This document shows positions 901-42,964 of a stretch of DNA of 64,000 nucleotides, piece by piece. Every line of letters starts with the position of its first letter. The first letter of the stretch is position 1. The translations under genes and the position numbers were made by a program. The notes beneath the pieces are model-generated. The model did no database searches, had not been told where the DNA came from, and was given only the letters and a program-made list of their open reading frames with translations. Source of the stretch: a virus; IMG/VR virus record IMGVR_UViG_3300045988_149975; one strand, written 5' to 3'.

Positions 901-929
901 ATTAAACCACAAAAATTGATTTTTGTCAA
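901..929 (-). promoter_or_regulatory. sigma-A type promoter (TTGACA-N17-TTTAAT)
   Basis: Minus strand TTGACAaaaatcaatttttgTGGTTTAAT. Same architecture as about 20 other sites in the window. Confidence 0.55.
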
Positions 930-938
930 GTAATTCTA

Positions 939-1688
939 TTAACTATTTTTATTCATCATATACATAAATTCATCATCAGTCATAACAAAAGTTCCCTTTC
1001 TCTTGTCCATAACACAAACACAACTACCAGGAACGCCTACTCTATAACCACGCTCTTTTGCATAAGCAGGATAAATTTGATAAGTACCACTCCATACCTC
1101 AAATACACGTTTTGCCACAGGAATCTTCTCAAATTTATTATGCTCAATAATAACTTTTTCTTTTACATAACGCTGATGATGATGTTCTCTCCAAGTAACA
1201 TCCGCATTTATCCAATCAAACACGCCATCCTTCTTTGGACTCATGTGTTGTACAAAGTGTACTGTGCAATGCTTACCAACATTAAAATATAGAAAACAAA
1301 ATTCTCTTTTATAAATTTCAGGTTTTCCTATAAGAGTTGCTAACATAAGTTCGGGGGTAAAATAATTTACGTGTTTATTTCTTAATGCAAGATGGTTTCC
1401 ATCTATAATATATAATACCCTATCCGCATAAGGTTTTATAATATCTGCAAGTTCATATACTTGCTTATCACCAACCGACCATTCTTCTTGAGGGTCAGAC
1501 TTACTTAATCTTGTTGCACCATTTCCTGCATCTCCACCTATACCTACATACATATTAGGTATAGACATTAAGTATTTAAGAGTTTTTTCAAATAACTCCT
1601 TATTACATAATCCCCAATGTATATCACCTAAATTTGTAAAATAAGCTACCTCATTATCACATCTAAATGTTACAACATGGTCTTTCAA
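939..1688 (-). CDS. calcineurin-like metallophosphoesterase
   Basis: Phosphoesterase motifs GDIHWG, GGDAGNG and IIDGNHL. Confidence 0.65.
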   Translation of the reverse strand: MKDHVVTFRCDNEVAYFTNLGDIHWGLCNKELFEKTLKYLMSIPNMYVGIGGDAGNGATRLSKSDPQEEWSVGDKQVYELADIIKPYADRVLYIIDGNHLALRNKHVNYFTPELMLATLIGKPEIYKREFCFLYFNVGKHCTVHFVQHMSPKKDGVFDWINADVTWREHHHQRYVKEKVIIEHNKFEKIPVAKRVFEVWSGTYQIYPAYAKERGYRVGVPGSCVCVMDKRKGTFVMTDDEFMYMMNKNS

Positions 1689-1736
1689 CTCATTAAATAT
1701 TATTTGTTCCTTATCTTTAGCTATTTGAAACCCCTC

Positions 1737-2843
1737 CTATTTAATGTTTTCCCAAAGACAATCTTTAGGGTCTTTATCTTCCCTAAACCTTACAAAGCGT
1801 GGATGTCTTAAAGATTTTGTTTTCTGATTAATTACATTCTGATATATAACCTCAATAGGAACATTGTATAAATCAGTATTCTTAATCATATTTTGAATAT
1901 CATCACTAAACCCCTTAACAGTAGTAACATATTTTAATTTACCATCTTTATATGCACCTAATTTTATACCTGCTACCCAATGATTATAGTATGTCTTTGT
2001 AACAGGTACTCCATTCTCCCAATATTTCCAACCCCGCTCTGCGAGTTCTACTAAATCAAACTTACCTGTATAATACTTATCAGGCTCTACAAACCCCATT
2101 ATAACTAAATCTGCTGTTTTACGTTCTTTAAATTTTAACCAATAATTACTTCTTTTAAATTCATAACTTGAATAAGCATCTTTTAATACAATCCCTTCAC
2201 CACCGTTATCAATTACAGCACTGTATAAGTTGTTATATGTGGGTACTTTCTTAAAAATAGGATTTTTAAAATAACTATCCTCATATAATGCCCAAAAACT
2301 TAAATCAATATTAAAAGGCTCTACCCTAATATTTAACGGTATAGGAAAACTATCTAATTTCACATAAAGAGTATTTAAAAACATTGCCCTCTCTAAAAGA
2401 GGAAATCTTGTTAAATCCTGTCCATCCCATTTTATTACATCAAATATGTTATAAATTAACTCATAACCATCTTGCCACAAATCCAATGCTCTTTCAGGTG
2501 TTGAACCTAAAATATGTTGTACTTTAGAAGAATCAGATTTTTCATATTTCAATGTAAGTTCGCCATCAAAAATAAAATCTTCATCACTGCCCAAAAGTTT
2601 ATTTATATTAATATTACTTAAAAAAGAAAGTTTAGATGTATTATCCTCCTTCTCCCCTGTTACCTTACTATTACGGCGACTATAAAAATAATTTTTACCC
2701 TCATGACATAACATAATTGCTCTATGTCCATCTAACTTTTCTTGAGCAACAAAACGTCTGAATAATCCTATACTATTTTTTTCAAACTTTTCAAAATTAC
2801 ATTCTGTACAAAGCATAGGCTCTATATTAGGATTTATATTCAT
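1737..2843 (-). CDS. ATP-dependent DNA ligase
   Basis: Nucleotidyltransferase motif I EKLDGHR, motif IV GGEGIVLK, motif V WLKFK. Confidence 0.7.
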   Translation of the reverse strand: MNINPNIEPMLCTECNFEKFEKNSIGLFRRFVAQEKLDGHRAIMLCHEGKNYFYSRRNSKVTGEKEDNTSKLSFLSNININKLLGSDEDFIFDGELTLKYEKSDSSKVQHILGSTPERALDLWQDGYELIYNIFDVIKWDGQDLTRFPLLERAMFLNTLYVKLDSFPIPLNIRVEPFNIDLSFWALYEDSYFKNPIFKKVPTYNNLYSAVIDNGGEGIVLKDAYSSYEFKRSNYWLKFKERKTADLVIMGFVEPDKYYTGKFDLVELAERGWKYWENGVPVTKTYYNHWVAGIKLGAYKDGKLKYVTTVKGFSDDIQNMIKNTDLYNVPIEVIYQNVINQKTKSLRHPRFVRFREDKDPKDCLWENIK

Positions 2844-3399
2844 AATGCCCCACCTCTAACAGATTTAATACTACTCTTTCTAATGCTTTTAAATCACTAT
2901 CATTTATAATTTTATAATCCCAAATACCCCAATCATCTAATTCAGTTTCACTGCTATTTTTACGCTGTTCCTCTGTCAATTTATTTTCATGATTAGGTCT
3001 TTCAACCCTAATTGTTACACAATTATAATCTCTTTTGTGACAATAATCTAAAAGTTTTAATACTTCATTTTTATAACGTACATCAGGAATAGTTACTGCA
3101 AAATCTTGATAACCATACTCCATATTCCCGCTTATCATATTATCTAAATCATATAAGAAATATTCAATCCAAATGTCAGGATTATATTGTCTGCCGCCAT
3201 CACCAATCATTTGTAAAAGCTGCCTACCTCTTTCATCTTTCTTATTATCCCATCCAAAAGTATTCCTTGCAACACGCTTTACATTATCTGCAATGTGCAT
3301 TGTCCACATATCTCCACATTTTAAATGTTTCATTAAAAGATTAGATACAGTATCTTTTCCACTTTCTGCTTTTCCACTTATTAAAAAAATAGTTTTCAC
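2827..3399 (-). CDS. P-loop nucleotide kinase, T4 Dnk-like deoxynucleoside monophosphate kinase
   Basis: N-terminus MKTIFLISGKAESGKDT resembles T4 gp1 MKLIFLSGVKRSGKDT. Downstream TIPDVRYKNEV resembles T4 VPDTRQDHE. Confidence 0.55.
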   Translation of the reverse strand: MKTIFLISGKAESGKDTVSNLLMKHLKCGDMWTMHIADNVKRVARNTFGWDNKKDERGRQLLQMIGDGGRQYNPDIWIEYFLYDLDNMISGNMEYGYQDFAVTIPDVRYKNEVLKLLDYCHKRDYNCVTIRVERPNHENKLTEEQRKNSSETELDDWGIWDYKIINDSDLKALERVVLNLLEVGHYEYKS

Positions 3400-3417
3400 T
3401 TAAAAACCCCCTTTAAT

Positions 3418-3448
3418 AAATTATACCATAAAGTAATGATTTTGTCAA
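3418..3448 (-). promoter_or_regulatory. sigma-A type promoter (TTGACA-N17-TATAAT)
   Basis: Minus strand TTGACAaaatcattactttaTGGTATAAT upstream of the kinase gene. Confidence 0.55.
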
Positions 3449-3498
3449 TATAAAAATTTCACCAGTTAGTATCGTTTTAGAATACTAACTGGTGAAAA

Positions 3499-3915
3499 TT
3501 ATCTAACTAACAAACCATCTACAATAAGAGTATCAATAGGTGTAGATATTGCTTCTAAATTTTCTACCTTTTTAGACTGCCTTGATTGCACATCACTAAA
3601 AATCATTCTTAATTCCGTACCACCATAATTAAAAGTTACAGATTCAAAAACAACTACTTTATCACCTTTTTTAATTTTCTCTATATCCTTCCAACCTTCT
3701 TGCGTATAGACCTGTAACCCATCAAACACTTCAATTTGTGTCCCATTCTTATAATTAGTAAATAAAGTATGAACTCTGCCATTAAAGGTAGTCAATTCAA
3801 CAGTTAAATTTGTTGAAGTCTTACCTTTAGAGTCTACATAAAATACTTTGGCTTTAGAATAGGGGATTAAACCCCTATTCTTATCTAACAACTTAACCTG
3901 CGCAGGAATTTTCAC
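3499..3915 (-). CDS. hypothetical protein
   Basis: 138-aa ORF coupled to the upstream gene; no recognisable motif. Confidence 0.4.
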   Translation of the reverse strand: MKIPAQVKLLDKNRGLIPYSKAKVFYVDSKGKTSTNLTVELTTFNGRVHTLFTNYKNGTQIEVFDGLQVYTQEGWKDIEKIKKGDKVVVFESVTFNYGGTELRMIFSDVQSRQSKKVENLEAISTPIDTLIVDGLLVR

Positions 3916-5389
3916 AATTTGCCTCCAAGACTTCTCTTACAAAATTATAACGCTCTACATAAATGCAATCATAGATTGCTTTAAGAGGGTCATAAGTTTC
4001 ATTACTTGTCGCCGCTTTAATTGCAGCAGGTGAATAACCACTTACAAGCACTAAACCATTTTCATTCTCAATAACAGGAATTGTTCCACTTCTTGAAGCT
4101 ACGTTCCAAAAAATGAGTTTTGGTAATTTATAACCATAACCTCTATAAAGTTCGGAGATTGATTCAAGACTGTTTCCATAAGTACACTCATTAAATTCCA
4201 TATCACTAATGATAAGAATATTAGGAATATCCTCTTGTTTAAGTTTATTCCTTATAGCAGTATCTAATACAAGTTTAAATACAGCTTCAATATTCGTACT
4301 ACCGTTCCAATCCATTCTTTCTGTCATCCAAATATAAGCATCATAAACTGTTTTAAATCTACTTACATCTACATAAGTAGGCTTATCAGAGAATGTAACT
4401 ACTTTGCCTTTAAACTCATCCTTTGCACGTTGCGCAAAATATAAAGCTAATCCAACAGAGCAATCAATAGGCATTATATTATTACTGCCCCATGTCATAG
4501 AACCGCTTACATCAGCTACTACAAGAGTATTCTCTACACCCTCATAATCTTTTAAATTTTCCCAAAGACCTTGTGTAAGTCTTTTATCACTATTTCTTCT
4601 TACCATAGAGATAATCTCATGCGGATAAAGAGTAGAAGCATTAATTTTAGCTTTACCTTTAGAAAGACTATCAAGATACTCCTGTCTACGTTGCATATCC
4701 TTTCTCATAAAAAGTTCAGCATACTTCTTATTAGCTTTAGAAGGAACAGCTTCATAATCAATCTCATTATAAGTATTATTAGAGATATGCTGCTCCACAA
4801 TATCTAAATATTCTCTCATTTCAGACAAGGCTTTTCTGTACTCACCATTAGTCATTCCATAATAGCCAATAAACTCTCTTGCCAATTTACGAGATTTTTT
4901 ACCACTATTTATAGAAGGCATCCATTTAGCCAATAAACTAATGGATTTATCTTTCTGCATATTATCCCAATCTACCTCTAACTGCTTACAAAGAGTTTCT
5001 ATTAAACATTTTTTCAAGGGCGTTTCCATAAGTACAAAGAGGTCATCCCATCTACCTACTTCTACAATGTATTTAATAAAATGTTTAACAAGTTCAGGCT
5101 CTCTATTAGCTAATTCTTTAAGCATTTCCCTAAAAATACGTCTTTCACCTAAACCGCCACGCACATCACGCAGGAAAAACATATATCTATAAATAACTTC
5201 TTTATTGTGTTTCTTATCATTTAAAAGCTGTACAACCTGCGTATGAAGTAACTCATCAGACATATTTCTAATAGCAGGCAATGAGAAATTAAAATCAACT
5301 AATACATCTTTAGTAGTTGCATAACCCTTCATACCATTTTCAGTAAAAGAAACATTCATTTCATCCTCTAAACAATTAATAAAGATCAT
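3893..5389 (-). CDS. vWA-domain protein with DUF2828-like N-terminal region, possibly Ro60/TROVE-related
   Basis: MIDAS motif DVSGSM in the C-terminal vWA part. N-terminal FTENGMKGYATTKDVLVDFNF resembles the DUF2828/TROVE-type signature. The likely true start is M at 5389 (GGAGGA RBS 6 nt upstream), not the ORF-track start at 5452, which would overlap the tRNA-like element. Confidence 0.5.
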   Translation of the reverse strand: MIFINCLEDEMNVSFTENGMKGYATTKDVLVDFNFSLPAIRNMSDELLHTQVVQLLNDKKHNKEVIYRYMFFLRDVRGGLGERRIFREMLKELANREPELVKHFIKYIVEVGRWDDLFVLMETPLKKCLIETLCKQLEVDWDNMQKDKSISLLAKWMPSINSGKKSRKLAREFIGYYGMTNGEYRKALSEMREYLDIVEQHISNNTYNEIDYEAVPSKANKKYAELFMRKDMQRRQEYLDSLSKGKAKINASTLYPHEIISMVRRNSDKRLTQGLWENLKDYEGVENTLVVADVSGSMTWGSNNIMPIDCSVGLALYFAQRAKDEFKGKVVTFSDKPTYVDVSRFKTVYDAYIWMTERMDWNGSTNIEAVFKLVLDTAIRNKLKQEDIPNILIISDMEFNECTYGNSLESISELYRGYGYKLPKLIFWNVASRSGTIPVIENENGLVLVSGYSPAAIKAATSNETYDPLKAIYDCIYVERYNFVREVLEANCENSCAG

Positions 5390-5401
5390 TTCATATCCTC
5401 C

Positions 5402-5488
5402 TTCAATTAAATGGAACGCCCTGAAGGAATTGAACCTTTTGACTCCTTCCACCTGTTTAATGTCGCAAGATTAGAAGTCTTGTGGTGG
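5402..5488 (-). ncRNA. tRNA-like structured element (7-bp acceptor-like stem, canonical T-arm, Arg-UCU-like anticodon hairpin, no D-arm), directly 5' of the vWA gene
   Basis: Minus RNA ACGCCCU-GUU-CCACC-A-CAAGA(CUUCUAA)UCUUG-CGACAUUAAACA-GGUGG-AAGGAGUCA-AAAGG(UUCAAUU)CCUUC-AGGGCGU-U-CCA. The D-arm is replaced by a CCACC/GGUGG helix enclosing the anticodon-like hairpin. Confidence 0.5.
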
Positions 5489-5521
5489 AACAGGGCGTAT
5501 AAAATAAAAAACCTGCTCATT
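5489..5521 (-). terminator. rho-independent terminator ending the tRNA-cluster transcript
   Basis: Minus RNA CCUGCUC-UAAU-GAGCAGG followed by UUUUUUAUUUUAU. Confidence 0.7.
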
Positions 5522-5742
5522 AGAGCAGGCTATTTGTGGCGCAGTAGAAATAAATCAAATGACTTACCACTACTGCATTAAACAAGGTTTCCTAATAAAG
5601 TATTACAAATTACAAATTTGTTCTTTTCTTAATAAAATTTTGCTGTGAAACCTTTATAACCTGCAAGGTAGTTTTACCCTGTTCAAAAGTATGCAATTTT
5701 GTGAGAACCTTAATAAAATTTTGCTGTACTACCTTTATGTAT

Positions 5743-5771
5743 ATATTATAACACAAGTCATCTAATTTGTC
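5743..5771 (-). promoter_or_regulatory. sigma-A type promoter (TTGACA-N17-TATAAT)
   Basis: Minus strand TTGACAaattagatgacttgTGTTATAAT. Drives the roughly 240-nt ORF-free region that ends at the 5489-5521 terminator. Confidence 0.55.
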
Positions 5772-5785
5772 AAGTAAAATTTTTA

Positions 5786-5858
5786 TGGTACGAGTGGAGG
5801 GAATCGAACCCACAACACAAGTTCCCAAAACTTGTATGTTACCACTACACTACACTCA
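5786..5858 (-). tRNA. tRNA-Pro(UGG)
   Basis: Acceptor ATGAGTG/CACTCGT. Anticodon stem CAAGT/ACTTG with loop TTTGGGA. T-loop TTCGATT. CCA encoded. Confidence 0.65.
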
Positions 5859-5868
5859 TATTATTAAA

Positions 5869-5943
5869 TGGAGCTTCCAGAGGAACTTGAATCCCCATCA
5901 ACTGATTACAAATCAGTTGTTCTACCAGTTAAACTATGGAAGC
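5869..5943 (-). tRNA. tRNA-Thr(UGU)
   Basis: Acceptor GCTTCCA/TGGAAGC. D-arm GTTT-AACTGGTA-GAAC. Anticodon stem ACTGA/TCAGT with loop TTTGTAA. T-loop TTCAAGT. CCA encoded. Confidence 0.7.
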
Positions 5944-6049
5944 ATAATAACCTCATCAAGCCGATTTATTTAAGTAACTCATTCTTATACTCATAATCGG
6001 TGAAAAGACATATAAAACATATTACTTAAACTGATGAGGATTAATTACA

Positions 6050-6124
6050 TGGCACGGCAGAGAAGGACTTGAACCCTCATTAATGGTTTTGGAGACCACT
6101 GTTCTACCATTGAACTATCACCGC
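6050..6124 (-). tRNA. tRNA-Trp(CCA)-like with non-canonical acceptor stem
   Basis: D-arm GTTC-AATGGTA-GAAC. Anticodon stem GTGGT/ACCAT with loop CTCCAAA. T-arm GAGGG-TTCAAGT-CCTTC. The acceptor pairs only with 3 G.U wobbles, 1 mismatch and a one-nt register problem. Confidence 0.4.
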
Positions 6125-6368
6125 ATTTTATAGGGAACAGATTTTCACTTTTACTACTAACCTGTTCCCTATCTCCGAAGGAACTGCTATTTTGGGTACG
6201 CCGCTTTTAAACTACTGCCCAACATTTTAGGAAAATGACACTTCCCAGGCGTATATATAAAACCATGTCATAAGTTCCCAAACAATAAGCGAGCCTATAA
6301 CAACAGTTTTATTATCTATGGGGCTTTCGCCCCTAAATCAGCTTATAAGCTGACCAACGATGGCTAAT

Positions 6369-6445
6369 TGGTAGACGGTACGGGACTCGAACCCATATTA
6401 TAGCCTTGAAAGGGCTATGCCTTAAACCTCTTTGGCGAACCGTCC
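6369..6445 (-). tRNA. tRNA-Glu(UUC)
   Basis: Acceptor GGACGGT/ACCGTCT. Anticodon stem TAGCC/GGCTA with loop CTTTCAA. T-arm ATGGG-TTCGAGT-CCCGT. CCA encoded. Long D-loop. Confidence 0.55.
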
Positions 6446-6449
6446 ATTA

Positions 6450-6526
6450 TGGCGGTAATACAGGGGATTGAACCCTGAACTTTGCCTTGACAGGGCAATG
6501 TTTTATCCTATTAAACTATATCACCG
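6450..6526 (-). tRNA. tRNA-Asp(GUC)
   Basis: Acceptor GGTGATA/TATTACC. D-arm GTTT-AATAGGAT-AAAC. Anticodon stem TTGCC/GGCAA with loop CTGTCAA. T-arm CAGGG-TTCAATC-CCCTG. GCCA 3' end. Confidence 0.7.
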
Positions 6527-6527
6527 T

Positions 6528-6616
6528 GGTGGGCAGGGCAAGATTTTAACTTGCGATGTTTCTAACGTGGATGATTTACAGTCATCTGCCTTCGTACAAC
6601 TCGGCACACCTACCCA
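6528..6616 (-). tRNA. tRNA-Tyr(GUA), type II with long variable arm
   Basis: Acceptor GGGTAGG/CCTGCCC. Anticodon stem GATGA/TCATC with loop CTGTAAA. Variable arm about 15 nt. T-arm GCAAG-TTAAAAT-CTTGC. ACCA 3' end. Confidence 0.6.
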
Positions 6617-6644
6617 TTTATTTAAATATTTACTGCATTTCATT

Positions 6645-6720
6645 GGAAGCGGGTATGGGTACTGCCCCCATTTAGTCAGGCTTATGAGACCTGTGAGGTT
6701 ACTTAACCTCCCACCCGCAA
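6645..6720 (-). tRNA. tRNA-Met/fMet/Ile2 (CAU anticodon)
   Basis: Acceptor (T)GCGGGT/ACCCGC(T) with a 1-72 mismatch. Anticodon stem CAGGT/GCCTG with loop CTCATAA. Atypical T-loop GGCAGTA. CCA encoded. Confidence 0.5.
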
Positions 6721-6782
6721 TTATTAGTGGAGTTAAATTTCTCTAACTCCACAAGTATATGTCCGCAAACATATACCCTAAT

Positions 6783-7247
6783 TTATCTAAAGGGAACTCT
6801 ATTTTCCATCTTCCTACATACTACCTTACTTGCCGAAAATCGTTCCCTTTCGTAACCTAATCTTCTATAATCACGAGCAGAATGTTTATTTCGTGATTTA
6901 TAAGTTGGTAATTGACTATCACAATTAGGACAAATTAAACGTAAATTATCTTTGAAATTATTTGTAGCATTACCATCAATATGGTCTAAAATAAAATTTA
7001 AGGTCTTGCCATTCCACTCATTGGAGATACCACAAATAGCACATTTCCCATCTTGTGAATCAAATATATAATCTCTTATAGCATTTCTTAATGTTGTAGC
7101 CACACCACAATTAGTATCCCCTGTTTTTAACCAGTTATTTATTAAATCATTTCTATTTTTATTAACCAAACATTTATGACATAAACCACTTATTGTCTTT
7201 TTAGACAACTTTATACCACAATTATTACAAAAAAATGGCATTATCAA
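6783..7247 (-). CDS. HNH endonuclease inserted within the tRNA array
   Basis: CxxC pairs plus LDHIDGNATNNFKDNLRLICPNCDSQ, an HNH/His-Me finger. Confidence 0.7.
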   Translation of the reverse strand: MIMPFFCNNCGIKLSKKTISGLCHKCLVNKNRNDLINNWLKTGDTNCGVATTLRNAIRDYIFDSQDGKCAICGISNEWNGKTLNFILDHIDGNATNNFKDNLRLICPNCDSQLPTYKSRNKHSARDYRRLGYERERFSASKVVCRKMENRVPFR

Positions 7248-7262
7248 AACTCCTCATATTTT

Positions 7263-7351
7263 TGGAAGAAGGTAGGGGACTCGAACCCCTAAAAGGCTCT
7301 CACCTCTCGTCTGCTTTCAAGGCAGATGCCTTACCATTAGGCTAACCTTCC
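7263..7351 (-). tRNA. tRNA-Ser(UGA), type II
   Basis: Acceptor GGAAGGT/ACCTTCT. D-arm GCC-TAATGGTAA-GGC. Anticodon stem TCTGC/GCAGA with loop CTTGAAA. 19-nt variable arm. T-arm AGGGG-TTCGAGT-CCCCT. CCA encoded. Confidence 0.7.
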
Positions 7352-7523
7352 ATTTACTGCTCCCTTGAGCCACTTGGGTACTACGCCATAATTTCCATTT
7401 AGCCAAAGGTAGCAATAGATAACCTTATTATTCTATCATCTGTAACAAATTTTTTTTAAAGTAATAATTGCAGACATATATTTTTCAATATACGCTTTCT
7501 CAAATAAATATTGCTACCCTTGG

Positions 7524-7575
7524 ATAAGTGGCGGAGCGTAAACCGCTGCATTACCATTATGCTAACGCTCCGTTT
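7524..7575 (-). ncRNA. degenerate tRNA-like fragment (acceptor-like stem plus D-arm mimic only)
   Basis: GGAGCGT-TA-GCA(TAATGGTAA)TGC-A-GCGGTTT-ACGCTCC-GCCA. The D-loop matches the adjacent tRNA-Ser; anticodon and T arms are absent. On the plus strand it is followed by a T-run. Confidence 0.35.
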
Positions 7576-7581
7576 TTATGT

Positions 7582-7610
7582 ATTATAACATATTAACATA
7601 AAATTGTCAA
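7582..7610 (-). promoter_or_regulatory. sigma-A type promoter driving the tRNA/HNH array
   Basis: Minus strand TTGACAattttatgttaataTGTTATAAT. Confidence 0.55.
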
Positions 7611-7643
7611 GACTTTTTTAGAATTATTTAAAATTTTAACATC

Positions 7644-8423
7644 TTACTTTTCTTTATTATTATTCCTTTTATACTCAAATGAAGTTTTAGCTACAAGACC
7701 GTACTTCTTTAAATACTTTTTTATACCATTATCTGATACACCATAAATCCTGCCCATTTCTCTCATACTTAAACCTTCATCAACAAGTTTTTTCAATTCT
7801 TCCCTTAAAATATTATCATCTTTTTTAAGAGTATTATTTTTTATAGTCTTATCTGCACTCCTCACAATACTTCTATTGAGAGAAGAACATTTAACGCTAC
7901 AAAAAATTTGTGTATGTTTCTTTGGAATAAATATTTTATGGCACATAGGACACTCAACACGTTTATCTTGTAATGATTGTAATACTTTTACGCCATCTCT
8001 TTTTGTACGCTCGGTATAAGTTACTTTATAACCTCTACCGCTAACTTTTCCCGATTTAACATTTCTTCCTCTATAATTTTCAGTTAACGAATGACAATTA
8101 GGACAAATTAAACGTAAATTACTTTCACTGTGGTTTAATGGGTTTCCATCTATATGGTCAATCTCCAATGGTACGTTTCCAGTGTAAGGATTAACCTCTC
8201 CCCAACCACATATAGAACACTTACCATCATTTAATTCAAATAGATACCTTCTAATATAACCTGAAACTTCTCCCCAATTTCCTTGACCACCATCAACTAA
8301 ACCTTGTTTCCATTTAGATATATAATCTAAATAACGTGACCTCATACTACACTTTTTACTACAATATATGTTACGATATTGTGTAATCTCTTTTCCGCAA
8401 ATTGGACATTTTCTTTTTTCCAT
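7644..8423 (-). CDS. HNH endonuclease with C-terminal helix-turn-helix-like region
   Basis: EIDHIDGNPLNHSESNLRLICPNCHSL. Zn-ribbon-like CPICGK...CSKKC at the N-terminus. C-terminal LSMREMGRIYGVSDNGIKKYLKKYG. Confidence 0.7.
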   Translation of the reverse strand: MEKRKCPICGKEITQYRNIYCSKKCSMRSRYLDYISKWKQGLVDGGQGNWGEVSGYIRRYLFELNDGKCSICGWGEVNPYTGNVPLEIDHIDGNPLNHSESNLRLICPNCHSLTENYRGRNVKSGKVSGRGYKVTYTERTKRDGVKVLQSLQDKRVECPMCHKIFIPKKHTQIFCSVKCSSLNRSIVRSADKTIKNNTLKKDDNILREELKKLVDEGLSMREMGRIYGVSDNGIKKYLKKYGLVAKTSFEYKRNNNKEK

Positions 8424-8530
8424 TCTAATTCCTCCTAATTAAAATTATATAGGGAAGCATAGAGAAGGAGGCTCTATGCTTAATTACTCTATCAAAGTTT
8501 GCAACCTTTAATAGAAACCTTTAAAATCTA

Positions 8531-8605
8531 TGGTCGTCCCAAAGGTACTCGAAACCTTGTTTTACAATTATAAGTTGTACGTTCTAACCACTGAACTATG
8601 GGACA
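8531..8605 (-). tRNA. tRNA-Ile(UAU) (AUA-reading) candidate
   Basis: Acceptor TGTCCCA/TGGGACG with U1.G72. D-arm GTTC-AGTGGTTA-GAAC. Anticodon stem TACAA/TTGTA with loop CTTATAA. T-arm AAGGT-TTCGAGT-ACCTT. ACCA 3' end. Confidence 0.55.
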
Positions 8606-8608
8606 ATA

Positions 8609-8693
8609 TGGTGCGCATGGAGGGACTCGAACCCTCACGGTTTTACCCAACGGATTTTAAGTCCGTTGTGTCTGCCAATTCCACCACAAGCGC
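8609..8693 (-). tRNA. tRNA-Leu(UAA), type II
   Basis: Acceptor GCGCTTG/CATGCGC with one mismatch. Anticodon stem ACGGA/TCCGT with loop CTTAAAA. Long variable arm. T-arm GAGGG-TTCGAGT-CCCTC. ACCA 3' end. Confidence 0.6.
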
Positions 8694-8697
8694 ATTA

Positions 8698-8777
8698 TGG
8701 AAGTCCTGCACGGTAACGCTCCGTGAATTTTTAACAGTTTTGCAGACTGTCCTCTTACTTCAAGAGTACACAGGACT
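8698..8777 (-). ncRNA. tRNA-like cloverleaf (Cys-GCA-like anticodon arm, non-canonical T-loop and D-arm) directly downstream of CDS 8779..9162
   Basis: AGTCCTG...CAGGACT 7-bp closing stem, T, CCA. Arms CTCTT(GAAGT)AAGAG, ACAGT(CTGCAAA)ACTGT and CACGG(AGCGTTA)CCGTG. Lacks the T-psi-C loop. Confidence 0.35.
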
Positions 8778-8778
8778 A

Positions 8779-9162
8779 TTAAAAGTTCTTCTCAAAATCT
8801 TCTATAACCGTTTCCGTCTGTTTAAGGCTTGCTTCAAGACTTTTCTTAATCATTTTAAAACGTTTAAGAATTGCATCTTTATATTTAGCATGGGCTTTTT
8901 CAAAAGCAACAAGTTTACCAACTTCTTCATCCCACTCATCACCATCTGCTAATCTTGCAACACCTTTATATGAATCACTTAAAAGTAACTTCTCAATCAC
9001 TCTATAATCGTCTGTATCTACTTTTAACAGATTAATTAAATCCATTGAAGTATTTTGAAGAATTGCTACTACAACCCCATCTTCTTCTTTAATAATAAAT
9101 TTTGGTTTCCTTTTTGCCATTTTTATTACCTCATTTCTTATTATGTGCTTATTATACCACAA
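8779..9162 (-). CDS. hypothetical protein
   Basis: 127-aa ORF with promoter 9151-9179 and RBS upstream. Confidence 0.45.
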   Translation of the reverse strand: MWYNKHIIRNEVIKMAKRKPKFIIKEEDGVVVAILQNTSMDLINLLKVDTDDYRVIEKLLLSDSYKGVARLADGDEWDEEVGKLVAFEKAHAKYKDAILKRFKMIKKSLEASLKQTETVIEDFEKNF

Positions 9163-9179: not shown

Positions 9180-9187
9180 CTATTTTT

Positions 9188-25614: not shown

Positions 25615-27720
25615 TCAAGCCTTAAAATTGTAAATTGGCTTAATAATCTGTTTAATTTTAACAGTATCTTTAACAGCGTCTATAATCTCTTGTGCAGGTT
25701 TATATGCCATAGGTGCTTCATCAATAGTGGAATTATTAACTGATGTAGTATAAATACCATCCATAGTAGCCATATAATCTTTTAAATCAATTTTCTCTTT
25801 AGCTTCGCTACGGCTCATAATTCTACCTGCGCCATGAGGGGCAGAGAAGTTCCAATCAGGATTACCCTTACCCTCACCAATTATGCAGCCATCCCTCATA
25901 TTAAGAGGTATTACAACACTTTCTCCTGCTCTTGCAGAAATTGCGCCTTTACGAATAGTTCCATTAGCATAATAATTATGAATAGATTCTACTGTTTCAA
26001 CAGCTAACACATTAAAATGGTTTAAAATACGCTCTGCAATAGAAAGGCGGTTAAGGGAAGCAAATTCACAGGCAAGGTACATATCTTGTTTATACTCCTC
26101 TAAATATTCACCTGTAAGATGTTCTAAACCTTTAGGCAGTTTATTATCCTCTTTAAACTGAAGTAACCATTCTTGCCGTTTTTGTGGCTCAATAGTTTGA
26201 ATATGAAACTTAATCTGTTCCTTTAAATCACCTTGTATTTTTTCGGCAAGGGATTGATAATATTTTGCTACTTGATTACCAAGATTTCGTGAACCACTAT
26301 GTACTAATAACCATTGATTGCCCTCATTATCAATGTCTACTTCAATAAAATGATTGCCGCCTCCAAGCGAACCAAGAGAAAGCCTTAATCTATCAGTATC
26401 ATGAAAATGATCACAACAACGAAAAAGTTTTAAAGGGAAGTATTCCTGAATTTTCTCATTTACATCAAAACCTGAAGGAATAAACTCATTTATAAACATA
26501 TCAAGTTTTTCCAAATTTTTAATAGGTTTATTAAGTTTAACTGCAAGAATACCACAATTACCTGTAATTGATATTTTACTATTCCTTCTAATAACAAAAT
26601 AACCTGTATCAGTAGTAAAACAATACTTTAAACCATCCACAGATTTAACTGTTTCAATCTTATGTTCAGGAAATCTTACAATATCGTTTAAGGTTTCATA
26701 AACATTATATGTAGGATTCCATCCGTTATCATAAGTAATTACACTTATTCCTGCCCTAACACCACTGGCAGCAAAAGCATACTGAATTGCGTCTGCATTA
26801 CATTTAAGGGAGGTTGAAAATCTTGTTTTATTATTGCGAACAGTTCCATCCCAATACTTAATTTCGTCTATAACTACTTTTAATTCATTACTATTACATT
26901 GATAAAGAAAACTTAAATCTTTAACATACTCATTTTCAGAACCTCTAAAACGAATATTTGAAGTGCCGTCTTTCCAAACACTAATCCTGTAGTCAATACC
27001 TGCCTGCTTTAATAATTTGATAGCACGTTTAATTTTACGTTCTTTTCTAAAGTGAAGTTCAATCCACTGACTGCCATCTACATTATTATTTATATGCCCA
27101 TCAGCACTAACCATAATCATTAAACGAAGTTTAATATCTTCAATGCCTAAACCTTTAGAGTTTACATTAAAAGTGGTTTTAATACCTCCACTGATGCCCT
27201 TTTTAAGTGAGTTATGATGTTCTACAAAATCTTTTGCGGTATAATCACGAAGTTTATATCCTTTACCTTTAATGCCAATCCAAGCCAATATTTTATGTTC
27301 AGCACTAACACATTGGTCTAATCCCCCATCAGTGTTAAGGTAATAAAAATCCTCACAGGGCTTTTTAATATATAATAATGGGTGAGAAAACCTTGCACTA
27401 TCTGTATTTTTATCATAAATTAAAATCTGTTCTCCATCATATTCTGAAATCTTTTTCCAGCCGTTAGGGGTAAGAATTTCAGTATCTTTATCAAGGCAAC
27501 CAATATCTACCCCTATAACATTAGGGATTAAATATCTTACATTTGATGCAGTAAATCCCACCACACAGCCTTTTCCTGCATGATAGTCAGGCATAACGCA
27601 AATTTGCGCCCCTGAAAAAGATTTTAAGTTACAAAAATCTAAAATCTGTTCATAAGCAGTATCATCATATCTGTCAGAATAGATTATAGCGTCATTATAT
27701 TTACCTTTTACCTCAATCAT
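25615..27720 (-). CDS. rtcB: RtcB-type RNA 3'-phosphate ligase, interrupted by an intein
   Basis: Exteins QICVMPDYHAGKGCVVGF and VDIG|CGILAV match the RtcB DIGCG motif; C-terminal GGGNHF and PHGAGR motifs. The extein totals about 387 aa. Confidence 0.8.
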   Translation of the reverse strand: MIEVKGKYNDAIIYSDRYDDTAYEQILDFCNLKSFSGAQICVMPDYHAGKGCVVGFTASNVRYLIPNVIGVDIGCLDKDTEILTPNGWKKISEYDGEQILIYDKNTDSARFSHPLLYIKKPCEDFYYLNTDGGLDQCVSAEHKILAWIGIKGKGYKLRDYTAKDFVEHHNSLKKGISGGIKTTFNVNSKGLGIEDIKLRLMIMVSADGHINNNVDGSQWIELHFRKERKIKRAIKLLKQAGIDYRISVWKDGTSNIRFRGSENEYVKDLSFLYQCNSNELKVVIDEIKYWDGTVRNNKTRFSTSLKCNADAIQYAFAASGVRAGISVITYDNGWNPTYNVYETLNDIVRFPEHKIETVKSVDGLKYCFTTDTGYFVIRRNSKISITGNCGILAVKLNKPIKNLEKLDMFINEFIPSGFDVNEKIQEYFPLKLFRCCDHFHDTDRLRLSLGSLGGGNHFIEVDIDNEGNQWLLVHSGSRNLGNQVAKYYQSLAEKIQGDLKEQIKFHIQTIEPQKRQEWLLQFKEDNKLPKGLEHLTGEYLEEYKQDMYLACEFASLNRLSIAERILNHFNVLAVETVESIHNYYANGTIRKGAISARAGESVVIPLNMRDGCIIGEGKGNPDWNFSAPHGAGRIMSRSEAKEKIDLKDYMATMDGIYTTSVNNSTIDEAPMAYKPAQEIIDAVKDTVKIKQIIKPIYNFKA
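26557..27498 (-). mobile_element. intein with LAGLIDADG homing-endonuclease domain inside rtcB (about 314 aa)
   Basis: Starts CLDKDTEILTPNGW after VDIG. LAGLIDADG-like LRLMIMVSADGHI and VVIDEIKYWDGT. Ends ...ISITGN followed by Cys +1. Confidence 0.7.
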
Positions 27721-41890: not shown

Positions 41891-42964
41891 CTATTCATTG
41901 TTTTTAAGTAAGAAATCAGGATTAATGACTTTAAAGGATATATCCTCTCTATAATTTCTTACAACAATACCTTCCCTATCTATATCATATAAAAGAGATT
42001 TACCTCTTGCTTTTTCTACAATATCATGAATAGTTGGGGGAAGTATAAAATCATTTGTAAGTACAGGAACATTGTTAAGCCCTAATTTTTTGCAGATAAA
42101 ACTTGCCTTATCTTGTTCAATGCGTAAATCATCTATAATTACATTGTAAACAAAGAAGTCATATCCTGAAACATGATATTTATTTCCTTGTATAGATTTA
42201 CCTATAATCTCACCTTGTATTACTACTTTATTAGCATTATATGTTTTAGCTATATCTTTTAAACAATCTTTTAAACCAAAACGCCTTGCCACTTCCCAAT
42301 ATGGGGAATCATCTTCTTTTCTTAACCATACATTTCTACTGCATACACCAAATTTTCCTTCATTTAAAAAATATGTAGCACTACATCCGTCTAATTTTTC
42401 AGTCATATAGAACTTAACATTGTCCTTATGCCATTTTTCATATTGATTAGGTAAATTTTGTACCCTTTCTTCATCTGTCTTATTACATATATTTACAGGA
42501 AATGAAGCATTTGTAGTTTTAAATTTCGCTAAAAGTTTTCTAAACCACCTGTATTTCATTAAAAACCGTAAAAATCTTGGGTAACTTACACTTTGTTTAA
42601 TAAGTTTTGTTTCAGCTTCAGCCTGCGGGTCATATTTAGTTATACCAAGTTCTTTTGTAACATCATCACCGATTTCATGATAACTGCCCCTTAAATAACT
42701 AATAGGTAATACCAAACCTTGTGAAATTTGCTTCCTTAATTTAATAGTTCTTACCCTGTACTTTCTATCCTTCATAAAAGCAAATTCAGGACGAGGAGGC
42801 AAAATGGAATCTACTTCTACAAAAATAACTTTATCCCCTACATTAAAATTATCAGATTTAGATACAACACATTCCCATCCCCTTACAGTAGCCTTGAGTA
42901 TTCTATCCGCATTGGGAATAGGTTCTAAACTTTCAATTCTTGCTATAGTTGCTAATTTACGCAT
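41891..42964 (-). CDS. ATP-dependent RNA ligase (Rnl family, DraRnl/Rnl5-like with N-terminal OB-like domain), putative
   Basis: Motif I TEKLDGCS, motif IV REGIVVRN, motif V KVINPDFLLK. N-terminal MRKLATIARIESLEPIPNADRI...GW..VVSK...GDKVIFVEVDSILP is typical of DRB0094-family RNA ligases. Confidence 0.5.
   Translation of the reverse strand: MRKLATIARIESLEPIPNADRILKATVRGWECVVSKSDNFNVGDKVIFVEVDSILPPRPEFAFMKDRKYRVRTIKLRKQISQGLVLPISYLRGSYHEIGDDVTKELGITKYDPQAEAETKLIKQSVSYPRFLRFLMKYRWFRKLLAKFKTTNASFPVNICNKTDEERVQNLPNQYEKWHKDNVKFYMTEKLDGCSATYFLNEGKFGVCSRNVWLRKEDDSPYWEVARRFGLKDCLKDIAKTYNANKVVIQGEIIGKSIQGNKYHVSGYDFFVYNVIIDDLRIEQDKASFICKKLGLNNVPVLTNDFILPPTIHDIVEKARGKSLLYDIDREGIVVRNYREDISFKVINPDFLLKNNE

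What the first reader, a model, noticed from the sequence alone, without database searches (positions are those of the whole stretch)
939..8700. Phage-encoded RNA-repair / tRNA-replacement island (with distal RtcB and Rnl)
Within 8 kb lie a metallophosphoesterase (939..1688), an ATP ligase (1737..2843), a P-loop kinase (2827..3399), a vWA/DUF2828 protein that may be Ro60/TROVE-related (3893..5389), a tRNA-like RNA and about 10 tRNAs (Pro, Thr, Trp-like, Glu, Asp, Tyr, Met, Ser, Ile-UAU, Leu). Elsewhere in the window are an intein-containing RtcB (25615..27720) and an Rnl-type RNA ligase (41891..42964). Phosphoesterase plus kinase plus ligase is the healing-and-sealing logic of Pnkp/Rnl. RtcB seals 2',3'-cyclic-P ends, and bacterial Ro60 (Rsr) operons are known to pair with RtcB and tRNA-like Y RNAs. 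The combination fits a counter-defence against host anticodon nucleases, with substitute tRNAs matching this AT-rich genome's codon usage (UAA-Leu, UAU-Ile, UGU-Thr).
Basis: partly seen in the sequence, partly recalled or inferred. Interest (0 to 1): 0.7.

Follow-up and report, generated by a model that had tools for sequence, protein, structure and literature searches.

The report
Phage Ro60-like protein with tRNA-derived RNAs
An uncultured phage carries a tRNA gene cluster ending in a Ro60-shaped RNA-binding protein whose gene is preceded by small tRNA-derived RNAs with an 'ACAGCAA' signature found next to this protein family in phages of many hosts; the neighbouring 'repair' kinase and ligase are ordinary DNA-metabolism enzymes.

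Summary

**Not supported**
- 1737-2843 is an ATP-dependent DNA ligase and 2827-3399 is a dNMP kinase.
- With the phosphoesterase-like ORF they form a separate promoter-driven DNA-metabolism operon. It is not a Pnkp-like heal-and-seal set.

**Supported**
- 3893-5389 (DUF2828/DUF7788) has no Pfam TROVE match, but its AlphaFold model matches only Ro60/TROVE structures over its full length.
- The tRNA-like RNA at 5412-5498 is real, with compensatory changes in three helices. It is a D-arm-less derivative of tRNA-Arg(UCU).
- There are 8 canonical tRNAs plus Tyr and a Met-like tRNA.
- RtcB (with an intein) and an NgrRnl-type RNA ligase are confirmed.

**New**
- The Ro-like gene has its own promoter, which first drives two stem-loop RNAs carrying ACAGCAA, then a tRNA-Gly-derived minihelix and a terminator.
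- In 80 distant phage loci, ACAGCAA occurs 443 times on the gene strand and 51 times on the other. It peaks in the 500 nt upstream of the gene.
- The motif also flanks the homologues in Listeria, FelixO1-like, KVP40 and mycobacteriophage genomes.

Most likely this is a Ro/Y-RNA-like ribonucleoprotein acting on tRNAs. Protein-RNA binding and function are inferred, not shown.

The parts
939..1688 (-). Metallophosphoesterase-like ORF (249 aa). Last gene of the kinase-ligase-phosphoesterase DNA-metabolism operon.
   Evidence: ORF. No Pfam or NCBIfam hit. PHROG 7339 'DNA repair exonuclease' at 1e-9. No PDB sequence match. Syntenic in relatives, just before terminase.
1737..2843 (-). ATP-dependent DNA ligase (not an RNA ligase).
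   Evidence: PF01068 at 6e-24 plus DNA_ligase_A_C. phrog_114 at 8e-40. NCBIfam NHEJ/dnl1 DNA ligase models. PDB hits are only DNA ligases.
2827..3399 (-). Deoxynucleoside monophosphate kinase-like P-loop kinase.
   Evidence: phrog_139 at 6e-30. Weak PF21448 DNMK. No PNK-family hit.
3420..3448 (-). Perfect extended -10 sigma-70-type promoter for the kinase-ligase-phosphoesterase operon.
   Evidence: 12/12 match with TG.
3457..3497 (-). Intrinsic terminator ending the Ro-like transcription unit.
   Evidence: 17-pair stem plus T tract.
3499..3915 (-). 138-aa protein of unknown function. It overlaps the end of the Ro-like gene, so the two are probably translationally coupled.
   Evidence: ORF. Found only in this phage clade. 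Faint similarity to intein/Hint regions. The AlphaFold model is unusable, pLDDT 35.
3893..5389 (-). Ro60-fold RNA-binding protein: DUF2828 helical ring plus a DUF7788/vWA domain with an intact MIDAS motif.
   Evidence: Pfam. phrog_850 'RNA-binding protein' at 6e-118. AF2 pLDDT 87, pTM 0.85. Foldseek PDB top 11 hits are all Ro60/TROVE. D293, S295, S297, T365 and D396 are invariant. vWA_Ro60 hits weakly in 8 of 37 relatives.
5412..5498 (-). D-arm-less tRNA-like RNA: 8-bp acceptor stem plus 4-bp T arm, a UCCA end, and an anticodon-like hairpin with an invariant CUUCUAA (UCU) loop enclosed by an extra helix. Derived from tRNA-Arg(UCU).
   Evidence: Fold z = -3.3. Conserved in L001, L086 and L087 with compensatory changes. 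6 pairs changed on both sides, 95.6% paired, 0/500 shuffles reach this. CM R1 scores 104.6 bits. A canonical tRNA-Arg(UCU) occupies the same place in L089. Not called by ARAGORN in any mode.
5510..5531 (-). Intrinsic terminator between the small RNAs and the tRNA-like RNA plus Ro-like gene.
   Evidence: Conserved in L001, L004 and L088.
5537..5576 (-). Acceptor-stem minihelix ending in GCCA. It is the remnant of a tRNA-Gly(UCC) that is intact in relatives.
   Evidence: Fold. L086, L087 and L089 carry a full tRNA-Gly at the homologous place.
5583..5657 (-). ACAGCAA stem-loop RNA module 2 (closing helix AAGGUUUC/GAAACCUU).
   Evidence: Sequence. The closing helix covaries in L086, L087 and L089. 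CM R2, built from unrelated loci, scores 16.8 bits.
5664..5736 (-). ACAGCAA stem-loop RNA module 1 (closing helix AAGGUAGU/ACUACCUU).
   Evidence: Sequence. The helix covaries in L086 and L087. CM R2 scores 23.2 bits, E = 0.013. Modules 1 and 2 are the only two R2 hits in the 64-kb window.
5745..5773 (-). Perfect extended -10 promoter driving the small RNAs and the Ro-like gene.
   Evidence: 12/12 with TG. Conserved in L001, L004, L086, L087 and L088.
5786..6615 (-). tRNA genes Pro(UGG), Thr(UGU), Trp(CCA), Glu(UUC), Asp(GUC) and Tyr(GUA), with structured spacers.
   Evidence: ARAGORN. Rfam 46-69 bits. Spacers fold with z = -4.2 and -3.4.
6644..6719 (-). tRNA-Met-like cloverleaf (CAU) with a non-canonical T loop.
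   Evidence: Fold. ARAGORN mitochondrial mode only. Not found by Rfam.
6783..7247 (-). HNH homing-endonuclease-like gene inside the tRNA cluster.
   Evidence: phrog_10822 at 2.5e-23. Weak Pfam HNH. Relatives carry GIY-YIG or other HNH genes in this region instead.
7263..7351 (-). tRNA-Ser(UGA).
7529..7571 (-). Second truncated tRNA-like minihelix (acceptor stem plus D arm, GCCA end). It is the first element after the promoter at 7610-7582.
   Evidence: Fold. Promoter.
7644..8423 (-). Second HNH homing-endonuclease-like gene.
   Evidence: phrog_10822 at 4.6e-25 and phrog_1271 at 8.6e-25.
8531..8693 (-). tRNA-Ile(UAU) and tRNA-Leu(UAA).
25615..27720 (-). RtcB 3'-phosphate/5'-OH RNA ligase interrupted by a LAGLIDADG intein (about residues 73-389).
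   Evidence: PF01139 at 1e-52 in two stretches plus LAGLIDADG_3. phrog_1075 at 3e-115.
41891..42964 (-). ATP-dependent RNA ligase of the NgrRnl/DraRnl type, with an N-terminal OB domain.
   Evidence: PF21189 at 1e-28 plus PF09414 at 1e-23. TIGR02306 scores 153.7, above its cut-off of 151.15. PDB 5cot at 3e-43.

Best explanation
The 8-kb stretch holds two separate things.

**(1) 939-3448: a DNA-metabolism operon.** It has its own promoter and encodes a dNMP kinase, an ATP-dependent DNA ligase and a phosphoesterase/nuclease-like protein. It is not RNA end-healing.

**(2) 3457-9180: the phage's tRNA/small-RNA region.** It is transcribed from three identical strong promoters and invaded by two HNH homing-endonuclease genes.

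The last unit of this region runs from the promoter at 5773-5745 to the terminator at 3497-3457. In order, it makes:
- two stem-loop RNAs that carry ACAGCAA just after the 5' strand of their closing helix;
- an acceptor minihelix left over from a tRNA-Gly;
- a terminator;
- by read-through, a D-arm-less tRNA-Arg(UCU)-like RNA;
- a Ro60-fold ring protein (DUF2828/DUF7788);
- a small clade-specific protein.

**Shown:** the Ro60 fold; the conserved structures of the RNAs; and the very strong, strand-specific linkage of ACAGCAA modules to genes of this protein family across distant phages.

**Inferred:**
- The protein binds the helix-plus-ACAGCAA element the way Ro60 binds the stem of Y RNAs.
- The variable part of each RNA acts as the effector or decoy part. 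In relatives that part is often an anticodon-stem-loop mimic, a whole tRNA-like domain, or a YrlA-like domain.
- The resulting ribonucleoprotein works on tRNAs during infection, in surveillance, protection from or titration of anticodon nucleases, or processing and repair.
- RtcB and the NgrRnl-type ligase elsewhere in the genome could seal broken tRNAs, but they are not obligate partners.
For: **Protein**
- The AF2 model is confident: pLDDT 87, pTM 0.85.
- The top 11 PDB matches are all Ro60/TROVE, aligned over about 500 columns, E 4e-9 to 1e-4.
- The MIDAS residues are invariant.
- Pfam vWA_Ro60 hits weakly in 8 of 37 relatives.
- Homologues in mycobacteriophages are annotated 'Ro-like RNA binding protein'. 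They are DUF2828/DUF7788 by Pfam.

**Transcription units**

**RNAs in the window**
- Compensatory changes occur in the tRNA-like RNA.
- The closing helices of both ACAGCAA modules covary.

**Family-wide link**
- In 80 IMG/VR loci with proteins 38-48% identical, ACAGCAA occurs 443 times on the gene strand and 51 times on the other. 148 copies lie in the 500 nt just upstream.
- 62 of 66 full-length loci have a copy close by. The peak does not follow canonical tRNA density.
- A helix of at least 8 bp abuts the motif in 125 of 440 cases, against 9-30 in slid registers.
- 73 of 183 module loops hold an anticodon- or T-loop-like hairpin, against 12.6 in shuffles.
- A covariance model built only from those loci finds the two window modules and nothing else in 64 kb. 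It also finds modules next to the homologues in Listeria phage cka15, mycobacteriophage JoeDirt and a FelixO1-like phage (contexts).
- In JoeDirt one module encloses a sub-threshold YrlA (Y RNA-like) match: 39.8 bits, E 1e-5.

**Precedent**
- Ro60 with adjacent same-strand tRNA-like Y RNAs is established in bacteria and phages (PMC4201824; PMC12135203).
Against: - There is no direct evidence of protein-RNA binding or of stable RNAs.
- ACAGCAA is unlike the Ro60-binding motif of known Y RNAs. Rfam YrlA does not hit the window even at E <= 1.
- Pfam TROVE does not match any of 37 family members.
- The window's own two modules lack an obvious anticodon-loop mimic.
- The position upstream of the gene, with a terminator, is equally what a cis-regulatory leader would look like.
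- The IMG/VR sample is skewed towards one metagenome (3300045988).
- Phage RtcB is absent from the FelixO1-like, Vibrio, Staphylococcus and Campylobacter phages that carry the protein. This weakens a dedicated repair pathway.
Confidence: 0.5

Rival explanations
1. One reading: one integrated counter-defence island. The phosphoesterase, kinase and ligase heal and seal cleaved tRNAs as Pnkp/Rnl do, alongside Ro60, RtcB, Rnl and replacement tRNAs.
For: - Phosphoesterase-like motifs are present in 939-1688.
- The ATP ligase also gives a weaker RNA_ligase domain hit (PF09414 at 6.5e-7).
- The Ro-like protein, RtcB and the RNA ligase are real.
- Mycobacteriophage LeBron combines a Ro-like protein, an RNA ligase and a polynucleotide kinase (PMC13148394).
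Against: - The ligase is a DNA ligase by every library.
- The kinase matches dNMP kinases, not polynucleotide kinases.
- The three genes have a separate promoter and lie past a terminator from the Ro-like unit.
- The block is syntenic with the terminase and portal module in relatives.
- RtcB and Rnl are 20-36 kb away.
- The Rnl gene sits beside a Tgt/DpdA-like gene and QueC, a DNA-modification context.
Confidence: 0.1
2. The ACAGCAA stem-loops are cis-acting elements, not trans-acting partner RNAs. They could be an autoregulatory leader or attenuator for the Ro-like gene, or processing or stability signals for tRNA-cluster transcripts.
For: - The elements are always on the gene strand and peak directly upstream.
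- In the window a terminator lies between them and the gene, with no promoter in between, so expression needs read-through.
- In L004 the terminator abuts the ribosome-binding site.
Against: - Loci carry multiple copies.
- Copies lie downstream of the gene in FelixO1-like phages and JoeDirt.
- Copies are embedded inside tRNA genes.
- Module loops are enriched for anticodon-loop mimics.
- None of this excludes the protein binding them in cis.
Confidence: 0.2
3. The ACAGCAA modules are intron-like inserts or their free-standing relatives. The Ro-like protein would be a cofactor for excising them from pre-tRNAs, with RtcB or a host ligase joining the exons.
For: - In distant loci many 110-125-nt tRNA genes (Rfam tRNA 44-58 bits) carry a 40-55-nt insert containing ACAGCAA.
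- In one group the insert sits between nucleotides 28 and 29. The flanks restore a canonical, covarying anticodon stem with proper loops: GUU x4, UUU, GUC, GCU (my reading of the sequences).
- Listeria phage cka15 has RtcB 1.3 kb from the gene.
Against: - The window has no insert-bearing tRNA.
- No endonuclease candidate was found.
- Two other groups of insert-bearing tRNAs show no recoverable anticodon.
- Most phages with the protein lack RtcB.
Confidence: 0.12
4. The odd tRNA-like pieces (the D-arm-less RNA, the minihelices, the Met-like tRNA) are decaying tRNA pseudogenes in a recombination-prone cluster full of homing endonucleases. On this view they have no function of their own.
For: - The minihelix at 5537-5576 is plainly a remnant of a tRNA-Gly that is intact in L086, L087 and L089.
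- The D-arm-less RNA is missing in L004 and L088.
- tRNA content varies between close relatives.
Against: - The D-arm-less RNA keeps all helices through compensatory changes and has an invariant loop.
- It preserves a 12-bp acceptor/T stack and a CCA end.
Confidence: 0.08

Closest known systems
Ro60 (Rsr/TROVE) with Y RNAs and YrlA tRNA mimics: Deinococcus, Salmonella, M. smegmatis, mycobacteriophages, and Thermus phage phiLo phiRo60 with Yrl1/Yrl2.
   Same: - A ring of helical repeats plus a vWA/MIDAS domain.
- Small structured RNAs encoded next to the gene on the same strand, some mimicking tRNA (PMC4201824; PMC12135203).
- One homologue's neighbour gives a sub-threshold YrlA match.
   Different: - No Pfam TROVE match; this is a different sequence family, DUF2828/DUF7788.
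- The RNA signature is ACAGCAA after a closing helix, not the GNCGAA-type motif.
- The window RNAs are not hit by Rfam YrlA.
- The tRNA-like RNA here keeps its ends in the acceptor stem. In YrlA the domain is permuted.
- The gene is embedded in phage tRNA clusters.
Phage T4 Pnkp + Rnl1, and bacterial Pnkp/Hen1 heal-and-seal tRNA repair.
   Same: The phage encodes RNA-sealing enzymes: RtcB and an ATP-dependent RNA ligase.
   Different: - No polynucleotide kinase-phosphatase was found in the window.
- The adjacent kinase and ligase are DNA-metabolism enzymes.
- The RNA ligase is the NgrRnl/DraRnl type. From my own knowledge, that type seals nicks in duplexes rather than anticodon-loop breaks.
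Phage tRNA clusters as codon-usage supplements or replacements for nuclease-depleted host tRNAs (reviewed for jumbo phages in PMC7824862).
   Same: - 10 tRNAs with anticodons for A/U-ending codons, which the phage prefers.
- Homing endonucleases lie between the tRNA genes.
   Different: The host is unknown, so supplementation could not be tested. The cluster additionally carries non-decoding tRNA derivatives and a Ro-like protein.
Archaeal and eukaryotic protein-spliced tRNA introns joined by RtcB.
   Same: Short inserts in or near the anticodon arm of tRNA genes in related loci, with exons that restore the stem. RtcB is present in some of these phages.
   Different: - The insert position is 28/29 rather than 37/38.
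- No bulge-helix-bulge motif or splicing endonuclease was identified.
- The window itself has no such tRNA.

Membership tests
Ro60 / TROVE (Rsr) | Toroid of HEAT-like helical repeats followed by a vWA domain with a MIDAS motif. | tested here: met
   AF2 model pLDDT 87. Foldseek full-length matches to 9kop, 9l5y, 1yvr, 2nvo, 1yvp and 2i91, probability 1.0. DxSxS...T...D invariant.
Ro60 / TROVE (Rsr) | Sequence match to Pfam TROVE (PF05731). | tested here: not met
   No TROVE hit at E <= 1 in the window protein or in 36 relatives. Only vWA_Ro60 (PF25045) hits weakly, in 8 of 37. No PDB match by sequence.
Ro60 / TROVE (Rsr) | Binds a Y RNA through a conserved helix, and single-stranded RNA ends in the central hole. 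| not testable with these tools
   Only genomic linkage to structured RNAs is shown.
YrlA / Y RNA-like (Rfam RF02553) | Match to the covariance model, with a permuted tRNA-like T/D-arm domain closed by a Ro-binding stem. | tested here: not met
   No YrlA hit in window 5300-8900 at E <= 1. A sub-threshold hit (39.8 bits against a gathering score of 69) occurs only next to the mycobacteriophage JoeDirt homologue.
YrlA / Y RNA-like (Rfam RF02553) | Encoded within 4 kb of the Ro gene on the same strand. | tested here: met
   The window modules and tRNA-like RNA lie 23-350 nt upstream on the same strand. The same holds across 62 of 66 loci.
Pnkp/Rnl-type heal-and-seal RNA repair | 5'-OH polynucleotide kinase. 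| tested here: not met
   2827-3399 matches dNMP kinase (phrog_139 at 6e-30). No PNK family is matched.
Pnkp/Rnl-type heal-and-seal RNA repair | RNA-specific ligase adjacent to the end-healing enzymes. | tested here: not met
   1737-2843 is an ATP-dependent DNA ligase with a C-terminal OB domain.
Pnkp/Rnl-type heal-and-seal RNA repair | 2',3'-phosphoesterase acting on RNA ends. | tested here: inconclusive
   939-1688 has phosphoesterase-like motifs but only a weak 'DNA repair exonuclease' PHROG match. No Pfam, NCBIfam or PDB match.
RtcB RNA ligase | Match to PF01139 above threshold across the extein. | tested here: met
   179.9 bits in two stretches flanking a LAGLIDADG intein. phrog_1075 at 3e-115.
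NgrRnl/DraRnl-type RNA ligase | N-terminal OB domain plus nucleotidyltransferase domain, with an equivalog model above its cut-off. | tested here: met
   PF21189 plus PF09414. TIGR02306 scores 153.7 against a cut-off of 151.15. PDB 5cot at 3e-43.
Canonical elongator tRNA (for 5412-5498) | Four-arm cloverleaf with a D arm, detected by tRNA finders. | tested here: not met
   Not called by ARAGORN in standard, relaxed or mitochondrial mode. Rfam gives only tRNA-Sec at 24.8 bits. The conserved structure has no D arm.

The most novel reading that the evidence does not exclude
DUF2828/DUF7788 proteins and their 'helix + ACAGCAA' RNAs form a widespread phage ribonucleoprotein system that I did not find described. 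It would be a second, sequence-unrelated branch of the Ro/Y-RNA theme. Its RNAs display anticodon-stem-loop or whole-tRNA mimics. In some phages they sit as inserts between nucleotides 28 and 29 of otherwise normal tRNA genes. The RNP would either titrate host anticodon nucleases or tRNA-targeting enzymes with decoys, or mature a new class of interrupted phage tRNAs. The window's D-arm-less tRNA-Arg(UCU)-like RNA would be one such decoy or substrate.
Probability: 0.3. Interest if true: 0.85.

Novelty: new variant of a known kind. Interest (0 to 1): 0.62.

Why it matters
- Phage tRNA clusters are usually read as codon-usage helpers or spare parts against anticodon nucleases.
- Here a protein family is tied by strong genomic linkage to a specific RNA signature and to tRNA-derived RNAs. 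The family occurs in about 700 sequenced phages, including FelixO1-like, Listeria cka15-type (Pecentumvirus), KVP40 and cluster L mycobacteriophages.
- That gives a concrete, testable partner set (protein plus about 70-nt RNAs) for a Ro-like system in experimentally tractable phages.
- It also flags unannotated RNAs, and tRNA genes with inserts, that standard tRNA finders miss.
- It corrects an attractive but wrong 'heal-and-seal' reading of a DNA ligase and a dNMP kinase.

Tried and rejected
- Megablast of 900-9000 against 50,697 phage records found no match. The phage is distant from cultured ones; its best DNA polymerase match is 32%, to Bacillus phage BCD7.
- A sequence search of the Ro-like protein against the PDB found nothing. 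The fold search was needed.
- The metagenome scan with the single protein returned only near-identical contigs, useless for covariation.
- The exact-pattern scan for the tRNA-like T-arm region found only two near-identical relatives.
- CM R1 for the D-arm-less RNA finds it strongly only in the window clade and in L086/L087. Weak hits elsewhere are ordinary tRNAs. The RNA is therefore clade-restricted, unlike the ACAGCAA modules.
- My first helix test around ACAGCAA was too permissive: 58% against 43% in random positions. I replaced it with the slid-register control.
- The pairing in alignment A5 is partly circular, because its sequences were chosen for having a helix. I did not use it as evidence, only to build model R2.
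- The 138-aa protein has homologues only in this clade, and its AlphaFold model is at pLDDT 35. No inference was drawn.
- The Met-like tRNA is not the counterpart of the Gln tRNA at the same place in L001.
- I looked for archease, RtcA or PNK near RtcB and Rnl and found none.
- Literature searches for DUF2828, ACAGCAA, Ro-like/tRNA/phage and tRNA decoys found no description of the motif. Burroughs & Aravind 2016, the most relevant review, is not held. Prior description cannot be excluded.

Full report
**What is there**

The window is a 31% GC phage genome segment with almost all genes on the minus strand. It has no close relative among 50,697 deposited phages. Its DNA polymerase is at best 32% identical to that of Bacillus phage BCD7.

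- ARAGORN finds eight tRNAs: Pro, Thr, Trp, Glu, Asp, Ser, Ile-UAU and Leu-UAA.
- Rfam adds a ninth at 6530-6615. This is Tyr-GUA.
- The 'Met' at 6644-6719 is a cloverleaf with CAU but an aberrant T loop.
- RtcB with a LAGLIDADG intein and an RNA ligase at 41891-42964 are confirmed.

**The 'healing and sealing' trio is DNA metabolism**

- 1737-2843 matches the ATP-dependent DNA ligase adenylation domain (6e-24) and its C-terminal OB domain. It matches the phage DNA ligase PHROG at 8e-40. NCBIfam and PDB hits are DNA ligases only.
- 2827-3399 matches the phage dNMP kinase PHROG (6e-30) and no polynucleotide kinase.
- 939-1688 has phosphoesterase-like motifs but only a weak 'DNA repair exonuclease' match.
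- A perfect promoter (3448-3420) precedes the trio. A strong terminator (3497-3457) separates it from the upstream genes.
- In relatives the block dUTPase / tRNAs / DUF2828 / 138-aa / kinase / ligase / phosphoesterase runs straight into terminase and portal.

The Pnkp/Rnl analogy therefore fails on two tested defining features.

**The vWA protein is Ro60-like**

- 3893-5389 is DUF2828 plus DUF7788 with a weak vWA match. It belongs to phrog_850, 'RNA-binding protein'.
- Neither Pfam TROVE nor any PDB sequence matches it.
- An AlphaFold model built on 37 relatives is confident: pLDDT 87, pTM 0.85.
- Its eleven best PDB matches are all Ro60/TROVE structures aligned over the whole length. They include Thermus phage phiLo, Xenopus and Deinococcus proteins. 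The isolated vWA domains of other proteins come far behind.
- The MIDAS residues are invariant.
- The family is large. More than 5,000 clusters were found among the 8,000 candidates scored. 709 phage records carry it: FelixO1-like coliphages, Listeria and Enterococcus Herelleviridae, Campylobacter, Staphylococcus, KVP40-like Vibrio phages and cluster L mycobacteriophages. In the last group it is already annotated 'Ro-like RNA binding protein'.
- Overexpression of the LeBron homologue is toxic to M. smegmatis (PMC13148394).

**The RNAs in front of the gene**

A perfect promoter at 5773-5745 is followed by these elements, in order:
- two stem-loops (5736-5664 and 5657-5583), in each of which ACAGCAA follows the 5' strand of the closing helix;
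- a hairpin ending in GCCA (5576-5537);
- an intrinsic terminator (5531-5510);
- the tRNA-like RNA (5498-5412);
- the ribosome-binding site.

Comparison with relatives whose protein is 50-78% identical shows four things.
1. Both closing helices change by compensatory substitutions, while ACAGCAA stays fixed.
2. The GCCA hairpin is what remains of a tRNA-Gly(UCC) that is intact in L086, L087 and L089.
3. The tRNA-like RNA keeps an 8-bp acceptor stem, a 4-bp T stem, an extra helix enclosing an anticodon-like hairpin, and an invariant CUUCUAA loop. Six pairs are changed on both sides and 95.6% of cells are paired. No shuffle or slid register comes close.
4. In L089 a canonical tRNA-Arg(UCU) sits at that position. 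In L004 and L088 the element is absent.

The RNA has no D arm, and no tRNA finder calls it. AGA is the phage's main Arg codon at 47%, and no other tRNA-Arg is present. A decoding role is therefore conceivable. From general knowledge, ArgRS depends on the D loop, which makes that role doubtful.

**The link between protein and motif is general**

I fetched 80 IMG/VR loci whose proteins are only 38-48% identical to the window's.
- All 246 ARAGORN tRNAs in the 66 full-length loci are on the gene's strand.
- ACAGCAA occurs 443 times on that strand and 51 times on the other. 148 copies lie in the 500 nt immediately upstream of the gene.
- 62 of 66 full-length loci have a copy close by. The peak does not track canonical tRNA density.
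- A helix of at least 8 bp abuts the motif in 125 of 440 cases, against 9-30 when the register is slid.
- Of 183 distinct modules, 73 hold a 7-nt-loop hairpin of anticodon or T-loop type, against 12.6 in shuffled loops. Recurrent loops are CUUUUAA, CUUGAAA and CUGCAAA.
- A covariance model built only from these distant loci picks out the two window modules as its only hits in 64 kb.
- That model also finds modules beside the homologues in Listeria phage cka15, mycobacteriophage JoeDirt and a FelixO1-like coliphage (contexts).
- In JoeDirt, which has no tRNA genes nearby, three modules fill the gap after the gene. The middle one encloses a sub-threshold YrlA (Y RNA-like) match.
- Rfam has no family for the modules.

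**Interpretation**

A Ro60-fold protein is encoded next to small structured RNAs on the same strand, and some of those RNAs mimic tRNA. This is the arrangement known for Ro60 and Y/YrlA RNAs in bacteria and phages (PMC4201824, PMC12135203).

I therefore think the protein binds the helix-plus-ACAGCAA element. The variable part of the RNA would present tRNA-like features to other factors. The RNP would act on tRNAs during infection.

This is inference from fold and linkage. Binding, stability of the RNAs and function are untested. A purely cis-regulatory role for the modules remains possible, since the gene depends on read-through of the terminator.

RtcB is not a regular companion of the family. 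It is common in the Listeria, Bacillus and Enterococcus members, and lies 1.3 kb away in cka15. It is absent from the large Escherichia/Salmonella, Vibrio, Staphylococcus and Campylobacter groups.

**An unexpected side result**

In many of the distant loci the Rfam tRNA model matches genes of 110-125 nt. These are tRNAs with a 40-55-nt insert that contains a hairpin followed by ACAGCAA.

In one group the insert lies between nucleotides 28 and 29. The flanking bases restore a canonical, covarying anticodon stem with normal loops (GUU, UUU, GUC, GCU). This is what one would expect of an intron.

Two other groups show no recoverable anticodon. The window has none of these tRNAs.

**Verdict**

- The heal-and-seal reading of the kinase, ligase and phosphoesterase is wrong.
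- The Ro60 idea and the tRNA-like RNA are right.
- They open onto a widespread, apparently undescribed RNA signature tied to this protein family.
- I found no description of it in the searchable literature. The key review on RNA repair systems was not available.

Noticed in passing
L007 3118-3233, 3442-3566, 3573-3687; L015 3218-3336, 3538-3654; L017 3093-3210, 3761-3875; L019 3318-3434, 3531-3646, 3745-3867; L025 3087-3197, 3429-3543, 3630-3744; L033 3551-3664, 3671-3785, 3790-3903; L028 3110-3223: tRNA genes of 110-125 nt (Rfam tRNA 44-58 bits; missed by default ARAGORN) carry a 40-55-nt insert made of a hairpin plus ACAGCAA. In one group the insert lies between nucleotides 28 and 29, and the flanks restore a covarying anticodon stem with normal loops, which looks intron-like. 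They form arrays just upstream of DUF2828 genes.
   Followed up: partly
L099 1961-2512 (Listeria phage cka15, OR088597.1): A near-threshold ROOL RNA match (90.1 bits against a gathering score of 99.1; E 3e-17) lies inside the tRNA cluster upstream of the Ro-like gene. The record annotates tiny 'hypothetical proteins' across it.
   Followed up: no
window 7529-7571 (-): A second truncated tRNA-like minihelix: acceptor stem plus D arm joined directly to the 3' acceptor strand, ending in GCCA. It is the first element after the perfect promoter at 7610-7582, mirroring the minihelix at 5537-5576.
   Followed up: no
window 6644-6719 (-): A tRNA-Met-like cloverleaf with anticodon CAU but T loop GGCAGUA instead of UUCRANY. 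It is missed by Rfam and standard ARAGORN, and it is not homologous to the tRNA-Gln at the same place in L001.
   Followed up: partly
window 6125-6370 (-): The 245-nt spacer between tRNA-Trp and tRNA-Glu folds much better than shuffles (z = -4.2 and -3.4). The same spacing is kept in L001. It may be a further small RNA.
   Followed up: no
window 25615-27720, 34428-36443, 46305-49184 (-); L001 12708-15119: Three intein-containing genes lie in one window: RtcB (LAGLIDADG intein), a C5 cytosine DNA methylase (Hint/intein) and ribonucleotide reductase (intein). The terminase of relative L001 also carries an intein.
   Followed up: no
window 42975-44840 and 45025-45603 (-): A 621-aa protein with no Pfam hit matches PHROG 'queuine tRNA-ribosyltransferase' (1e-65; Tgt/DpdA-like). 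QueC lies next to it, and both are directly beside the RNA ligase. This suggests 7-deazaguanine modification of DNA or tRNA.
   Followed up: no
window 9188-10018 (-): One ORF fuses a hydrophobic N-terminus, a 3D (cell-wall-binding/lytic) domain and a dUTPase domain. The fusion is conserved in relatives L001 and L004.
   Followed up: no
window 3499-3915 (-): A 138-aa ORF overlaps the end of the Ro-like gene by 23 nt. It is restricted to this phage clade and shows faint similarity to intein/Hint segments of intein-containing RtcB and RNR models. Structure prediction failed.
   Followed up: partly
window 30712-31413 (-): A second, clear metallophosphoesterase (Pfam Metallophos at 5e-12) lies 3 kb from RtcB. 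It is a better candidate than 939-1688 for an end-processing enzyme, if one exists.
   Followed up: no
window 9179-9151, 7610-7582, 5773-5745, 3448-3420 (-): Four identical-consensus promoters (TTGACA, 17 nt, TG, TATAAT; 12/12 matches) divide the region into transcription units. The total count of promoter-like sites is not above the shuffled expectation (27 found; 26.1 expected).
   Followed up: partly
L098 3420-3475 (Vibrio phage KVP40, AY283928.2): An unannotated T-arm-like sequence and an ACAGCAA copy lie directly upstream of the KVP40 homologue (KVP40.0300). They partly lie under an annotated hypothetical ORF.
   Followed up: no
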